64,000 bases of DNA from a virus (Duplodnaviria; Caudoviricetes), in IMG/VR virus record IMGVR_UViG_3300013105_000003, positions 32,001 to 96,000 of that record. One strand, given 5' to 3'. The translations under genes and the position numbers were made by a program. Of this stretch, positions 31,744 through 36,840 are shown piece by piece (the stretch's first letter is position 1; every line of letters begins with the position of its first letter). The notes beneath the pieces were generated by a model. That model saw only the letters and a list, made by a program, of their open reading frames with translations, had not been told where the DNA came from and ran no database searches.

Positions 31744-32139
31744 ATGAACAAGATTAGTGAAGTTGTCGCCCAGGTCCGTCGTCTCGCTGCAGAGAATCCT
31801 GACTTTGTCTATGAGAAGGTTAAGAGTAAGAGCAGTGAAGATAGCCCAAAGTGCCTTTACACTCACAATGGTAAGGGTAGTTGCATCATAGGACAGGCTA
31901 TTCTAGCTGTAGATGATAGCCTCTACAGTAAGCTGGCTGACTATGATGAGGGATTAATCTTTGGATATTCCGCAACCATTGTTGTACATGACCTGTACCC
32001 AGAAGAGTTTAAGAAGGCTCAAGGTGAGATGTATGCAAAGTGGCTTCATTTGGTCCAGCGGAAGCAAGATGATGGGTGGACTTGGGAAGAGGCTGTTGGG
32101 TATGCCGATAGTTTCCTTGATAGTGGGAGTTTATCATGA
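31744..32139 (+). CDS. Hypothetical protein, paralog family A
   Basis: PDFVY..C.Y..GSCIIG...VQ..QD.G..W. Confidence 0.7.
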   Translation: MNKISEVVAQVRRLAAENPDFVYEKVKSKSSEDSPKCLYTHNGKGSCIIGQAILAVDDSLYSKLADYDEGLIFGYSATIVVHDLYPEEFKKAQGEMYAKWLHLVQRKQDDGWTWEEAVGYADSFLDSGSLS

Positions 32140-32510
32140 ACAAAGTAGAAGAGATTGTAAGAGAGATTCGTAGGCTAGCTGCTTTGGAGCCATATTTTGT
32201 TTATAAGGTTCCTGAGGGAAGCGACAGGTGCCGATACGTTAATTCAACGTCTGGAAGTTGTATAGTTGGTAAAGCAATTCTCAACATTACTCCAAGAAAC
32301 CACAAGTCTCATGTGTATGAGACTCTATCCTATTTCGATACGAAACCTGTGGCTATGTCAGCTGATGACGCTGTTAGGGATCTTGTAAATGTATCTGAGA
32401 AAGATGAAGAAAGCCTGAAGTGGATAGACCTAGTTCAACACTGTCAGGATAATGGTCTTCCTTGGAAACTAGCTGTTCAACGAGCCGATGAAGCAGTACT
32501 CGGAGAATAA
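32136..32510 (+). CDS. Hypothetical protein, paralog family A
   Basis: Same motifs as the upstream gene. Confidence 0.7.
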   Translation: MNKVEEIVREIRRLAALEPYFVYKVPEGSDRCRYVNSTSGSCIVGKAILNITPRNHKSHVYETLSYFDTKPVAMSADDAVRDLVNVSEKDEESLKWIDLVQHCQDNGLPWKLAVQRADEAVLGE

Positions 32511-33439: not shown

Positions 33440-33442
33440 TAT
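33434..33442 (+). promoter_or_regulatory. CGATAATAT putative phage-sigma promoter
   Basis: Before the RNA cluster. Confidence 0.65.
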
Positions 33443-33449
33443 AAATATA

Positions 33450-33553
33450 GGGAGAATGGCTTCTTCCTGCATTCGCTAGTCAGTGTTAAACTGACAGAGC
33501 CAGACCCCTTGGGCAATAAGGTTATGATTGATTCGTAGCTGTTCAAGGTCTCA
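33450..33553 (+). ncRNA. Putative structured RNA of unknown family
   Basis: Nested stems with G-U pairs on the + strand, right after a CGATAATAT site. Confidence 0.5.
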
Positions 33554-33556
33554 CTG

Positions 33557-33630
33557 GGGAGTATAGCTTAACTGGAAGAGTGTCCTGACTCCAAATCAGG
33601 AAGGCGTCTGTTCGATTCGGACTACTCCCG
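33557..33630 (+). tRNA. tRNA-Trp(CCA)
   Basis: GGGAGTA/TACTCCC acceptor, CCTGA-CTCCAAA-TCAGG anticodon arm, GTCTG-TTCGATT-CGGAC T arm, G73; no encoded CCA. Confidence 0.9.
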
Positions 33631-33631
33631 C

Positions 33632-34066
33632 ATGGTAGATAGAATGAGATATCCAGAACTTCCTTCTGCTTTAGTTGATAGGTCTGGTTACGATAAAGGA
33701 AGGTACCAGATTCTTCGCAATAGACTTCTGGCCCTTCTTGGAGGTGTCTGTGTTAGGTGTGGAACCGATCAAAACTTAGAGTTTGATCACAGGGACCCAA
33801 AGTCCAAAAAATTTACTATCATGGCTAAGTGGAATAACTATACTAATGAAGAGCTATATAAAGAAATAGAAAAATGCCAACTTCTGTGTAAGAAGCACCA
33901 CATAGAGAAGACGAGAGAGGATATAGGAGTACCTCACGGTGGAGGCGTCTCTGGTAAGAGAGACCCAGAGAGAGGGGATAGGTGTAGGTGTGACCTATGT
34001 AAAGCTAAGTACAACGAATACATGAGAGCACTTAAGAAGAGACTAAAAGAAGAAAAGAAAAAATAA
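33632..34066 (+). CDS. HNH endonuclease
   Basis: CVRCG...EFDHRDP...CQLLCKKHH, plus HG...CRCDLC; sits between tRNA genes. Confidence 0.85.
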   Translation: MVDRMRYPELPSALVDRSGYDKGRYQILRNRLLALLGGVCVRCGTDQNLEFDHRDPKSKKFTIMAKWNNYTNEELYKEIEKCQLLCKKHHIEKTREDIGVPHGGGVSGKRDPERGDRCRCDLCKAKYNEYMRALKKRLKEEKKK

Positions 34067-34071
34067 AACAA

Positions 34072-34153
34072 GCCCTCATATCAGCGCACTCTTATAAAGT
34101 GTCCATTACAATGCTGTATCTGGTGGAGGTTGGTTCAAGTCCAACTGAGGGTA
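34072..34153 (+). tRNA. Atypical tRNA-Ile(TAT): no D-arm, long variable arm
   Basis: GCCCTCA/TGAGGGT acceptor, GCACT-CTTATAA-AGTGT anticodon arm, GTTGG-TTCAAGT-CCAAC T arm, A73. Confidence 0.75.
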
Positions 34154-34154
34154 C

Positions 34155-34418
34155 ATGGAAGTAAGAGAAGACTTGGAAGTTATTGAACTTCTAGACTATA
34201 ACTTTGCTATCCCCTGTGACCACGAAACATGTGATCTAGAGGCAGACTACTTATTAATTCTTCATTGCCCTTCCTGTGTTTATGAGGAAAAGTTCTTTAT
34301 TTGTGATCCACACTGGGTCAAGGTATCTACTACTAAAGGACTAATGGCTACCTGCTCTCGTTGTTCTGTGTATGGCTCCCTTGAAGATTTCTTGGTAGAA
34401 AGACGTTCACTAAAGTAA
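34155..34418 (+). CDS. Cys-rich hypothetical protein
   Basis: Several CxxC/CxxH; ATG directly after the tRNA. Confidence 0.6.
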   Translation: MEVREDLEVIELLDYNFAIPCDHETCDLEADYLLILHCPSCVYEEKFFICDPHWVKVSTTKGLMATCSRCSVYGSLEDFLVERRSLK

Positions 34419-34771: not shown

Positions 34772-35060
34772 TATGCCAGAAAGACTCAATCAACCAAGAA
34801 CTGGATTTAGTGTAGATGGAGATAGGGTAGAGATTCTAGCTCATCACACAGACGAAAGTAAGGTTAAGATCCACTTTACCGCACCGGAGCTAGAGCGGGA
34901 AGGGGATATTTGTCTAGATTTTGACGAGGCTTGGCGTTTTGCTAATGACGTTATTTCTTCTGCCTTGACTGTAAACCCAGAGTTCCTTCCTAGCTTATTT
35001 GCAGACTTAGGGAATCGTCTCAAGGTTCTAGAGCAGAAGCAACGAGAAATTACCTCTTGA
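34743..35060 (+). CDS. Hypothetical protein, paralog pair B (likely start ATG 34773)
   Basis: AWRFANDVISSA motif. Confidence 0.65.
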   Translation: MRNSKQEITDMPERLNQPRTGFSVDGDRVEILAHHTDESKVKIHFTAPELEREGDICLDFDEAWRFANDVISSALTVNPEFLPSLFADLGNRLKVLEQKQREITS

Positions 35061-35455
35061 CTCTTGAGAAAGACCCTGCTACACTTGACCACATGAGCGA
35101 AACAAAGATGCCCCCGTTGCACGACGTGGTGAAGAAGGTCCGAGAAATAGCTAAAGATGCGCCAGACCTTGTATACGAGATGCCAGATGGATGGTGCCAA
35201 TACGTATTTAATGGTCAGGGGTCTTGTATCGTAGGACAAGCCTATCTTGCTCTTGGAACTCCTATAAAGAAGGTTGAGTTGTGGGATACCGAAGAGAACG
35301 GACCTAGCGGTATAGAGGAAATAATAGAAAGAGAGTATGAAGAGTACTCAACTCTAGCTAAGTCTTGGTTGAGAGAGGTTCAGGACTCACAAGACACGGG
35401 AACCTCTTGGGCAGAAGCTGTAAAGAATGCAGATATAACCTTAGGGTTGATTTAA
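35057..35455 (+). CDS. Hypothetical protein, paralog family A
   Basis: PDLVY..CQY..GSCIVG...VQDSQDTG.SW. Confidence 0.7.
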   Translation: MTLEKDPATLDHMSETKMPPLHDVVKKVREIAKDAPDLVYEMPDGWCQYVFNGQGSCIVGQAYLALGTPIKKVELWDTEENGPSGIEEIIEREYEEYSTLAKSWLREVQDSQDTGTSWAEAVKNADITLGLI

Positions 35456-36754: not shown

Positions 36755-36827
36755 GTGGGTATGGGAAAATTGGGAATCCGTCTGCTTTGGGAGCAGAAGA
36801 CTGCGAGTTCGAGCCTCGCTACCCGCA
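36755..36827 (+). tRNA. tRNA-Pro(TGG)
   Basis: GTGGGTA/TACCCGC acceptor, TCTGC-TTTGGGA-GCAGA anticodon arm, GCGAG-TTCGAGC-CTCGC T arm. Confidence 0.88.
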
Positions 36828-36840
36828 CAAATTAAATATT

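What the first reader, a model, noticed from the sequence alone, without database searches (positions are those of the whole stretch)
34072..34153. D-armless tRNA-Ile(UAU) in which a pseudoknot to the variable arm may replace the D-arm
Seen: intact 7-bp acceptor stem, canonical T arm (TTCAAGT loop), 5-bp anticodon stem with CT-TAT-AA, and A73. Only 7 nt (TATCAGC, 34079-34085) link the acceptor and anticodon stems. A 26-nt variable region forms CCATTA/TGGTGG around a loop with GCTG (34113-34116), complementary to CAGC (34082-34085) in the linker. Known: bacteria normally read AUA with lysidine-modified CAU, UAU anticodons are rare, and D-armless tRNAs are mainly mitochondrial. Inference: a rewired tRNA fold that gives an AT-richer phage TilS-independent AUA decoding, or acts as a tRNA decoy against host anticodon nucleases. 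Intact stems argue against decay.
Basis: partly seen in the sequence, partly recalled or inferred. Interest (0 to 1): 0.85.

Follow-up and report, generated by a model that had tools for sequence, protein, structure and literature searches.

The report
Phage isoleucine tRNA with permuted core
This 82-base phage gene is very probably an isoleucine tRNA whose standard parts are joined in a different order from the universal cloverleaf. More than a hundred phage contigs share the layout, and I found no paper describing it.

Summary
ARAGORN and the Rfam tRNA model both miss it.

It is not a decayed tRNA. It belongs to a large phage family: at least 109 IMG/VR contigs, plus Streptomyces, Rhodococcus and Microbacterium phages.

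- **Layout.** One D-stem strand lies before the anticodon arm. The other strand and the D-loop motif (U-A-N-Y-U-G-G-U) lie after it.
- **Long-range pairing.** A 15/48 Levitt-type pair also covaries (G-C 25, A-U 20).
- **Model match.** A covariance model built without the window scores it 48.5 bits (E about 2e-9).
- **Pseudoknot.** Only 3 of his 6 pairs are conserved.
- **Allele swap.** A related phage has a canonical tRNA-Ile(UAU) with the same acceptor stem at the same site. A third phage carries the identical permuted gene.
- **Context.** An HNH homing-endonuclease gene lies directly upstream.

No experiment shows charging or decoding. This scan has met the same Ile/Arg family before on other DNA.

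The parts
34072..34078 (+). acceptor stem, 5' strand (GCCCTCA)
   Evidence: Pairs with 34146-34152. The acceptor helix covaries at all 7 pairs in the family. It is identical in the canonical allele of L011.
34079..34081 (+). U8, A9 and a U equivalent to position 22 (TAT)
   Evidence: TAT is invariant in 47/47 subfamily-a members although the search pattern left these positions free.
34082..34085 (+). helix H, 5' strand: CAG (equivalent to D-stem 23-25) plus C (position 26; here it also pairs with G34113)
   Evidence: Model R1 aligns it to the family's helix H. H is 100% paired with compensatory changes at 3/3 pairs in A5 and 59/60 paired in subfamily b.
34086..34102 (+). anticodon arm: GCACT / CTTATAA / AGTGT, anticodon UAU at 34093-34095
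   Evidence: The stem covaries in the family. U33 and A37 are present.
34103..34105 (+). helix V, 5' strand (CCA), first 3 nt of the spacer
   Evidence: Pairs with UGG at 34124-26. In 20 distinct subfamily-b sequences it is 56/60 paired, with types GGA/UCC, GC(A/G)/UGC and CC(A/G)/UGG. Slid controls reach at most 39/60.
34106..34113 (+). spacer loop (TTACAATG) linking helix V to helix H
   Evidence: Relatives carry 8-12-nt spacers of the type NNNTTATAATG. Subfamily a has only (A/C/U)GAAA here.
34114..34116 (+). helix H, 3' strand: CTG (equivalent to D-stem 10-12)
   Evidence: Same evidence as for 34082-34085.
34117..34128 (+). D-loop equivalent: U13 A14 U15 C16 U17 G18 G19, then U20-G-G (helix V 3' strand, 34124-26), A, and G (position 48 equivalent)
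   Evidence: A14 and G18G19 are also kept in members found by the model rather than by the pattern (GAU, CCU versions). The 15/48 pair covaries in subfamily a: G-C 25, A-U 20, other 2. Here it is an atypical U/G.
34129..34145 (+). T arm: GTTGG / TTCAAGT / CCAAC
   Evidence: It has G53-C61 and T54-T55-C56-A58. The stem covaries in the family.
34146..34154 (+). acceptor stem 3' strand (TGAGGGT), discriminator A73 (34153), C74 (34154)
   Evidence: A73 is present in all 109 members. C74 is present in 104/109. GAGGG (34147-51) is also the only Shine-Dalgarno-like text for the ATG at 34155.
33557..33631 (+). canonical tRNA-Trp(CCA), upstream neighbour in the same tRNA cluster
   Evidence: ARAGORN and Rfam, 55.9 bits.
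33632..34066 (+). HNH endonuclease gene that exactly fills the gap between the two tRNA genes
   Evidence: phrog_4234, E 2e-28. Absent at this site in L011 and L020. Carries a 10-nt deletion in L013.
34155..34418 (+). 87-aa Cys-rich ORF that anchors synteny with L011 and L020
   Evidence: Homologues P0002 and P0008 are 72-74% identical. The ATG lies 1 nt after C74.

Best explanation
The element is a phage tRNA-Ile(UAU) gene of a widespread, conserved family of core-permuted tRNAs.

**What is kept.** Every canonical part is present: a 7-bp acceptor stem, U8, A9, a D-stem, a D-loop with A14 and G18G19, a 5-bp anticodon stem with a 7-nt loop, a 15/48 pair, a T arm, A73 and C74.

**What is moved.** The block 10-21 (D-stem 5' strand plus D-loop) lies after the anticodon arm instead of before it. 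The chain runs acceptor - U8 A9 - [22-25] - 26 - anticodon arm - spacer - [10-13] - D-loop - 48 - T arm - acceptor. The D-stem (CAG/CUG here) therefore forms by long-range pairing around the anticodon arm.

**Why it could still fold normally (inferred).** The three new joins (9 to 22, 45 to 10, 21 to 46/48) connect residues that are neighbours in the canonical L-shaped core. The RNA could then fold into a normal L shape, be cut out of the tRNA-cluster transcript, receive CCA, be charged by the host IleRS and read AUA codons. AUA makes up 18% of this phage's Ile codons. In a probably high-GC actinobacterial host AUA-reading tRNA would be scarce.

**Window's subfamily.** An extra 3-bp helix (CCA/UGG) crosses the D-stem equivalent and makes a pseudoknot.

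**Shown:** family membership, helices, covariation, genomic context, and replacement of a canonical tRNA-Ile(UAU) at the same site.

**Inferred:** the 3D fold, processing, charging and decoding.
For: 109 of the 120 parsed hits have at least 6/7 acceptor pairs, at least 4/5 T-stem pairs and A73, giving 75 distinct sequences.
2. **Covariation, subfamily a.** In a gapless 47-sequence alignment, 98.8% of cells are paired against 69.1% in shuffles (0/500 shuffles reach it). The covariation score is 0.782 against 0.205. Slid controls reach at most 50%. Helix H is 100% paired, with double changes at 3/3 pairs. The 15/48 pair is G-C 25, A-U 20. These positions were N in the pattern.
3. **Independent model.** R1, built without the window, scores the element 48.5 bits, E about 2e-9, and aligns CAG/CUG to helix H.
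4. **Covariation, subfamily b (20 distinct, window included).** H is paired in 59/60 cells and V in 56/60. Slid controls reach at most 28/60 and 39/60.
5. **Un-permuting test.** Putting the 47 sequences back into canonical order makes ARAGORN (46 as Ile-UAU, mean score 112.8). It/47 in native order and about 30/47 (mean 105.3) when block 10-21 is shuffled.
6. **tRNA-cluster context.** 78 of the 109 loci hold a canonical tRNA. The nearest is on the same strand in 78/78 and within 100 nt in 34. Nt 74 is C in 104/109. A separate canonical tRNA-Ile(UAU) co-occurs in only 1 locus.
7. **Other anticodons.** The same layout occurs with GAU (Ile) and with CCU, UCG and UCU (Arg), and in cultured Streptomyces phages.
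8. **Same slot, two tRNA types.** L011 has a canonical tRNA-Ile(UAU) (59.7 bits) with the identical acceptor stem. Its anticodon and T stems differ by 5 compensatory double changes. L020 has the identical permuted gene in an L011-like background.
9. **No other Ile tRNA.** G000 has no other tRNA-Ile gene. ATA is 8.8 per 1000 codons.
10. **Tolerance of odd tRNAs.** The E. coli translation apparatus accepts a tRNA with no D-arm at all (PMC11551756).
Against: - No transcript, end-mapping, charging or decoding data exist for any member.
- The window copy is identical in every contig that carries it. It gives no covariation of its own, and its conservation could reflect recent transfer rather than selection.
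- Its 15/48 equivalent is U/G, unlike 18 A-U in its subfamily.
- Helix H is only 3-4 bp, and helix V rests on about four independent sequence types.
- The pattern used to collect the family fixed the anticodon loop, the UGGU motif and GGTTC. Conservation of those letters in the pattern-derived set is by construction.
- An earlier check within this scan of the same kind of claim on other DNA is flagged 'part of it fell', without saying which part.
Confidence: 0.7

Rival explanations
1. It is a conserved tRNA-shaped RNA that does not work in translation. It could be a decoy or sponge for host tRNA-targeting defence nucleases, RNases or modification enzymes, or a ligand for a phage protein.
For: The rewired core would change the surfaces that D-arm- or variable-loop-directed nucleases recognise. 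Defences that cleave tRNA, and phage tRNA countermeasures, are documented (abstract of PMC13096335). In this scan the layout is so far seen only for Ile and Arg anticodons.
Against: The anticodon loop (U33, A37), A73, C74 and the T loop are all conserved as in working tRNAs. The gene takes the place of a canonical tRNA-Ile(UAU) and almost never co-occurs with one. A decoy has no need to keep an anticodon that matches the phage's codon needs. No nuclease or partner gene is consistently adjacent.
Confidence: 0.15
2. In this particular phage the gene is a non-functional passenger. It is an allele carried along by the neighbouring HNH homing endonuclease through co-conversion, perhaps because its sequence is immune to cleavage, and it spread recently between phage lineages.
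For: The HNH gene lies immediately upstream. The 82 nt, plus CAA upstream and CATGGAA downstream, are 100% identical between the window and L020, whose flanks are only about 73% identical. Their tRNA-Pro genes are only about 57% alike. L013's HNH gene is already frameshifted, which fits a homing cycle. Homing of a tRNA region by T4 SegB is a precedent (PMC2330249).
Against: Homing explains the spread, not the architecture. The same layout is conserved with compensatory changes in at least 109 other contigs, most of them unrelated to this locus. All helices and loop motifs are intact here. It is the phage's only Ile tRNA. L020 carries it without the HNH gene.
Confidence: 0.08
3. Its main role is in cis. 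It would be a tRNA-like processing and translation-control element for the downstream 87-aa ORF, since the acceptor stem sequesters the only Shine-Dalgarno-like motif and the ATG follows one base after C74.
For: GAGGG (34147-51) lies inside the acceptor 3' strand. The strand plus ACATGGAA is identical in the window, L020 and L011.
Against: Most family members are not followed by an ORF at this spacing; many sit directly next to other tRNAs. A cis element has no need for an anticodon arm, a D-loop motif or a 15/48 pair. The canonical allele has the same overlap, so the overlap is a property of the locus, not of the fold.
Confidence: 0.05
4. It is a chance fold or a recently decayed tRNA pseudogene: a D-arm deletion plus an insertion.
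For: The fold z-score is only -1.6. A 4-nt complement is expected in 13-29% of shuffles. A syntenic relative has a normal D-arm.
Against: The independent family model matches at E about 2e-9. Helices H and V covary in relatives. No stem is damaged.
Confidence: 0.02

Closest known systems
Canonical bacterial and phage tRNA-Ile(UAU) (Rfam RF00005), e.g. the syntenic gene L011:299-373 and Mycoplasma mobile tRNAIle(UAU) (PMC3575796)
   Same: It has the same anticodon loop, 7-bp acceptor stem with A73, T arm, U8/A9, A14, G18G19 and a 15/48-type pair. It occupies the same genomic slot and has the identical acceptor stem as L011. The presumed job is the same: reading AUA without lysidine.
   Different: Chain order differs: block 10-21 follows the anticodon arm, so there is no D hairpin and no four-way cloverleaf. 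The D-stem encloses the anticodon arm. The window's subfamily adds a pseudoknot helix. RF00005 gives no hit for the window element and only 31-34 bits for subfamily a, and only by deleting the D arm.
D-armless mitochondrial tRNA-Ser(AGY) (PMC9427863) and the synthetic D-arm-less mini HisT used by E. coli (PMC11551756)
   Same: There is no D hairpin between the acceptor and anticodon stems, and the anticodon-side helix is extended. Both cases show that translation can tolerate non-cloverleaf tRNAs.
   Different: Those RNAs have truly lost the D-loop and the D/T elbow contacts and adopt a Y shape. This family keeps a D-stem equivalent, A14, G18G19 and a covarying 15/48 pair, so a normal L-shaped core is expected. 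This family occurs in phages of bacteria, not in organelles.
Circularly permuted tRNA genes of Cyanidioschyzon and other algae and archaea (PMC3978253)
   Same: tRNA segments are encoded in a non-canonical order.
   Different: In those genes the whole gene is permuted at one point and processing through a circular intermediate restores a normal cloverleaf. Here both termini are in the normal place and only the internal core is permuted. No processing is known or needed to restore canonical order, so the mature RNA itself would be non-cloverleaf.
allo-tRNAs with 8/4 or 9/3 acceptor/T stems (PMC5389517)
   Same: They are unusual tRNA architectures found by mining metagenomes, some with UAU-type anticodons.
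   Different: allo-tRNAs keep the cloverleaf order, a D arm and a long variable arm. Here the acceptor/T split is the standard 7/5 and the change is in strand order.
Free-standing homing endonucleases in phage tRNA clusters (T4 SegB, PMC2330249)
   Same: An endonuclease gene sits between tRNA genes. A neighbouring tRNA allele is shared identically between divergent phages, as co-conversion would produce.
   Different: The enzyme here is an HNH, not a GIY-YIG. Its cleavage site and any homing are untested.

Membership tests
   48.5 bits, E about 2e-9 to 3e-10, full length 1-77.
   CAG 34082-84 pairs with CUG 34114-16. The family is 100% paired with covariation; subfamily b is 59/60.
   TATCTGGT at 34117-34124. 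It was part of the search pattern, but it is also present in model-found members.
   The family shows G-C 25, A-U 20, and subfamily b shows A-U 18/20. The window has U/G.
Subfamily b of that family (pseudoknotted) | 8-12-nt spacer whose first 3 nt pair with U20 and the 2 nt after it (helix V), crossing helix H | tested here: met
   CCA 34103-05 pairs with UGG 34124-26. Subfamily b is 56/60 paired, against at most 39/60 when slid.
Canonical tRNA (Rfam RF00005, cloverleaf) | Score above the family threshold, or a call by a tRNA finder | tested here: not met
   No RF00005 hit at E<=10. There is no ARAGORN call by default, only an Ile|Met(UAU) call over 34073-34127 in its mitochondrial mode.
Canonical tRNA (Rfam RF00005, cloverleaf) | D hairpin between position 9 and the anticodon stem | tested here: not met
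   Only 5 nt (TCAGC) lie between A9 and the anticodon stem.
Canonical tRNA (Rfam RF00005, cloverleaf) | Acceptor stem 7 bp plus discriminator, anticodon arm 5 bp/7 nt with U33, T arm 5 bp/7 nt with T54-T55-C56-A58 | tested here: met
   base-pair probabilities 0.9-1.0.
Functional elongator tRNA-Ile | Matured (5'/3' processing, CCA), aminoacylated by IleRS, decodes AUA | not testable with these tools
Only indirect support exists: it replaces a canonical tRNA-Ile(UAU), and C74 is conserved.
D-armless (mitochondrial-type) tRNA | Loss of the D-stem, the D-loop and the G18G19/T-loop elbow contacts | tested here: not met
   A D-stem equivalent, A14 and G18G19 are retained downstream of the anticodon arm.
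Circularly permuted tRNA gene (Cyanidioschyzon type) | 3' half encoded upstream of the 5' half, with acceptor termini in the interior of the gene | tested here: not met
   The acceptor strands are at the two ends of the gene, as usual.

The most novel reading that the evidence does not exclude
Bacterial cells translate with natural non-cloverleaf tRNAs. Phages encode Ile (UAU, GAU) and Arg tRNAs in which the D-stem strand 10-13 and the D-loop are moved behind the anticodon arm. In one subfamily a pseudoknot is added. These RNAs still fold into the L shape and are charged by host synthetases. The rewiring persists because it makes them resistant to host tRNA-directed defences or turnover. Canonical and permuted alleles are exchanged at the same locus, here possibly driven by an HNH homing endonuclease.
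Probability: 0.5. Interest if true: 0.9.

Novelty: new variant of a known kind. Interest (0 to 1): 0.82.

Why it matters
- **Textbook rule.** The cloverleaf strand order is treated as universal for tRNAs used in bacteria. A 2024 paper states that all known bacterial tRNAs adopt it (PMC11551756), and a 2020 review of non-canonical tRNAs lists nothing like this (PMC7609411). A conserved, widespread phage tRNA with a permuted core would be a natural counter-example.
- **tRNA folding.** It would show that the L shape can be built from a different chain topology.
- **Annotation.** It exposes a blind spot in tRNA annotation of phage genomes.
- **Engineering.** It offers a scaffold for orthogonal-tRNA engineering.
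- **A natural experiment.** This window adds a canonical and a permuted tRNA-Ile(UAU) with the same acceptor stem at the same site in related phages, next to a homing endonuclease.
- **Tractable systems.** Cultured Streptomyces phages that carry a family member make the question directly testable.

Tried and rejected
- **Single-sequence permutation test.** I rotated the window's interior and ran ARAGORN. The result was not significant: 94% of shuffled controls also gave a call, and 27% reached the same best score.
- **Chance of the CAGC/GCUG complement.** It is 13-29% in shuffles, so it is not evidence by itself.
Energies are -20.7 and -22.1 kcal/mol against an MFE of -23.2. Thermodynamics does not decide between them.
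- **Relatives through other routes.** The ribonucleotide reductase gave 57% identical contigs with no tRNAs there. The downstream ORF in IMG/VR, exact DNA patterns and the upstream conserved block gave nothing.
- **Metagenome scan.** It returned only the same strain and one chance hit, L015.
- **Distant ORF homologues.** L016-L019 are not syntenic. L017 nevertheless turned out to hold an Arg(UCU) member.
- **BLAST against cultured phages.** The window element, and L151 of its own subfamily, gave no match. The nearest cultured relative by reductase, Actinomycetia phage DSL-LC01, has no family member.
- **Bacterial and archaeal genome scan.** It gave only canonical tRNA-Ile(UAU) genes, in Patescibacteria and Gammaproteobacteria MAGs, and no permuted ones.
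- **Literature searches.** Five searches found no description of this layout.
- **'Canonical Ile(UAU)' ARAGORN calls.** Those checked in subfamily-b loci (L076, L118, L156) proved to be low-score misfolds of the permuted gene itself.

Full report
**Observation**

- A 7-bp acceptor stem, GCCCTCA/TGAGGGT, with A73.
- A 7-nt linker, TATCAGC.
- A 5-bp anticodon stem with loop CTTATAA (anticodon UAU).
- 26 nt that contain CCATTA...TGGTGG and GCTG, which is complementary to CAGC in the linker.
- A canonical T arm.

ARAGORN finds only tRNA-Trp (33557-33631) and tRNA-Pro (36755-36828) in the window. Rfam's tRNA model finds the same two and gives nothing for this element even at E<=10.

On the single sequence the case is weak.
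- The fold z-score is -1.6.
- A 4-nt linker/loop complement appears in 13-29% of shuffles.
- A rotation test of the interior with ARAGORN is matched by shuffled controls.

**Setting**

The window is bases 32001-96000 of a 125,231-bp IMG/VR virus with direct terminal repeats and 44.8% G+C. It has nine ordinary tRNA calls and no other tRNA-Ile.

The nearest cultured relatives by ribonucleotide reductase are actinobacterial phages. The host is therefore probably an actinobacterium.

The element sits in a small tRNA cluster, in this order:
- tRNA-Trp;
- an HNH endonuclease ORF (33632-34066; phrog_4234, E 2e-28) that exactly fills the gap between the two tRNAs;
- the element;
- one base later, the ATG of an 87-aa ORF.

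ATA makes up 18% of Ile codons in the long ORFs, or 8.8 per 1000 codons.

**Syntenic relatives**

The 87-aa ORF has only three sequence variants in the large protein collections. Their contigs are informative.
- **L012 and L013** are the same phage type and carry the identical element. L013's HNH gene has a 10-nt deletion.
- **L011** is about 68% identical in DNA. At exactly this place it has a canonical 75-nt tRNA-Ile(UAU) (Rfam 59.7 bits) with the identical acceptor stem, A73, C and ATG, and no HNH gene.
- Compared with the window, L011's anticodon and T stems differ by five compensatory double changes. The two are therefore different intact tRNA types, not one and its wreck.
- **L020** has L011-like flanks: 77.6% identical to L011 and about 73% to the window. 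Yet it carries the window's 82 nt without a single change, and no HNH gene.
- The tRNA-Pro genes of the window and L020 are only about 57% alike.

The odd gene has therefore moved recently between lineages, or is under extreme constraint. A canonical and an odd tRNA-Ile(UAU) are interchangeable at this locus.

**The family**

- A pattern joining the anticodon arm to the T loop found nine IMG/VR contigs with the same odd layout.
- A looser pattern left the acceptor, linker, stems and spacer free. 109 of its 120 parsed hits have a good acceptor stem, T stem and A73, giving 75 distinct sequences.
- The bacterial/archaeal genome scan returned only canonical tRNA-Ile(UAU) genes.

The shared layout is:
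- acceptor 5' strand;
- U-A-U;
- three variable nt (x) and one more nt;
- the anticodon arm;
- a spacer;
- three nt (y) complementary to x;
- U-A-N-Y-U-G-G-U plus a few nt;
- T arm, acceptor 3' strand, A73 and, in 104/109, C74.

**Covariation in subfamily a**

Forty-seven distinct 77-nt members align without gaps (A5). On that alignment:
- 98.8% of cells are paired, against 69.1% in shuffles (0/500 shuffles reach it);
- the covariation score is 0.782, against 0.205;
- slid controls reach at most 50%;
- the x/y helix (H) is paired in every sequence and changes on both sides at all three pairs (for example C-G 26, U-A 14, G-C 6 at the middle pair);
- the residue after U-A and the residue just before the T stem covary as G-C (25) or A-U (20). 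That is the signature of the 15/48 Levitt pair.

**Mapping to standard numbering (my interpretation)**

- y plus U corresponds to positions 10-13.
- The following A-R-Y-U-G-G-U corresponds to 14-20.
- U plus x corresponds to 22-25, and the next nt to 26.

U8, A9, G10-C25 with G45, A14, G18G19 and Y48 all fall where a canonical core needs them.

The chain is re-joined as 9 to 22, 45 to 10 and 21 to 46/48. From established tRNA structure these are joins between neighbours in the L-shaped core.

Re-ordering the 47 sequences into canonical order makes ARAGORN, 46 of them as Ile(UAU), with a mean score of 112.8. It/47 in native order, and about 30/47 (mean 105.3) when block 10-21 is shuffled.

**The window as a member**

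Model R1, built from A5 only, scores the window element 48.5 bits (E about 2e-9). It aligns CAG/CUG to helix H with an insertion in the spacer.

The window belongs to a subfamily (b) of 20 distinct sequences with 8-12-nt spacers such as GGATTATAATG or CCATTATAATG; the window has CCATTACAATG.

In that subfamily:
- H is paired in 59/60 cells;
- the first three spacer nt pair with U20 and the next two nt (helix V) in 56/60 cells, with types GGA/UCC, GC(A/G)/UGC and CC(A/G)/UGG;
- slid controls reach at most 28/60 for H and 39/60 for V.

The further three pairs of his stem would use G18G19 and are not conserved.

The window's 15/48 equivalent is U/G, which is atypical.

**Function**

Arguments for a working tRNA:
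- The nearest canonical tRNA is on the same strand in 78/78 loci that have one, and within 100 nt in 34.
- A separate canonical tRNA-Ile(UAU) co-occurs in one locus at most. The other apparent co-occurrences that I checked (L076, L118, L156) are misfolded calls of the permuted gene itself.
- C74 is conserved, and the full CCA is encoded in 27 members.
- The same layout occurs with GAU (Ile) and with CCU, UCG and UCU (Arg) anticodons.
- Cultured Streptomyces BE1 phages such as Jay2Jay carry a GAU member (91.4 bits). It is unannotated in most records and labelled tRNA-Leu in EGole.
- The E. coli apparatus accepts even a tRNA with no D arm (PMC11551756).

The step from a conserved tRNA-shaped RNA to a working tRNA-Ile is inference; I put it near 0.7.

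A decoy role, hitch-hiking with the HNH gene, and a cis role for the downstream ORF remain as rivals. The HNH adjacency, the identical copy in a divergent background and the frameshifted HNH gene in L013 fit homing-driven spread, as with T4 SegB (PMC2330249). Homing would explain the spread of the gene, not its architecture.

**Comparison with what is known**

- Rfam's tRNA model sees subfamily a only marginally (31-34 bits against a cut-off of 29), by deleting the D arm and treating the D-loop block as a variable-region insertion. It does not see the window element at all.
- Five literature searches found no description of this layout.
- A review of non-canonical tRNAs does not mention phages or permutation (PMC7609411).
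- A 2024 paper states that all known bacterial tRNAs are cloverleaves (PMC11551756).
- It differs from D-armless mitochondrial tRNAs, because the D elements are kept.
- It differs from the circularly permuted tRNA genes of algae, because the termini are normal and no re-ordering of the RNA is implied.

**Earlier notes of this scan**

Notes on other DNA describe the same Ile/Arg family. One is flagged as partly failing a later check, without detail. I reached the family independently before reading them. A note on this same stretch did suggest the permutation idea early.

Noticed in passing
window 33440-33556: A non-coding block of about 115 nt upstream of tRNA-Trp is conserved in patches with L011:1-136 and L013:1-115 (GAATGGCT, TCCTGCA, TCGCTAG, CCCTTGGGC, GATTGATTC, CAAGGTC), although the neighbouring genes are only about 70% alike. 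No Rfam match and no consensus promoter was found. It could be a promoter or leader for the tRNA cluster, or a small RNA.
   Followed up: partly
L011:224-294 and L020:1-52: tRNA-Trp(CCA)-like genes with non-canonical T loops (GGCGGAA, AGCATAA). The L011 copy scores 29.2 bits with the Rfam tRNA model. ARAGORN calls neither. They stand where the window has a normal tRNA-Trp.
   Followed up: no
window 33632-34066 (and L013:191-574): The HNH endonuclease ORF starts one base after the tRNA-Trp C74 position and ends 5 nt before the permuted tRNA. In L013 it has a 10-nt deletion (window 33957-33966) that shifts the frame. This suggests a decaying homing-endonuclease gene.
   Followed up: partly
window 34146-34157 and 33630-33634: Both tRNAs are followed by C and then the ATG of the next ORF. 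The only Shine-Dalgarno-like text for the ORF at 34155 (GAGGG) lies inside the acceptor stem. tRNA 3' processing would therefore leave a nearly leaderless mRNA.
   Followed up: no
G000 115352-115443 and 115789-115873 (outside the window): A 92-nt tRNA-Asn(GUU) with a long variable arm (Rfam only 25.9 bits), and an 85-nt tRNA that ARAGORN calls with anticodon CUA (amber-reading) despite a poor anticodon stem. TAG ends 13 of the 98 long ORFs.
   Followed up: no
L017:860-938; L074:2864-2942; L133:2526-2602; L075:1331-1407: Permuted-core tRNA genes with other anticodons: Arg UCU (discriminator G), Arg UCG (discriminator U), Arg CCU, and Ile GAU. The GAU gene lies 45 nt from a UAU copy.
   Followed up: partly
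L182 (Streptomyces phage Jay2Jay NC_029098.1) 1495-1571: The GAU member lies directly after a gene annotated 'nucleotidyltransferase' and before an FtsK-like gene. It is unannotated in about 45 BE1 phage records and called tRNA-Leu in EGole.
   Followed up: partly
window 31744-32139, 32136-32510, 35057-35455: Three paralogous ORFs of about 125-132 aa (shared motif ...GxGSCI(V/I)GxA...) flank the tRNA cluster. The one scanned (35057-35455) has no Pfam family on record in the contig look-up.
   Followed up: no
L022, L024, L026, L033 (just upstream of their permuted tRNA): In several subfamily-a contigs the gene begins immediately after a strong terminator-like hairpin and T-run (CCCTCAGC...GCTGGGGGTTTTTTTT). 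This raises the question of how it is transcribed there.
   Followed up: no
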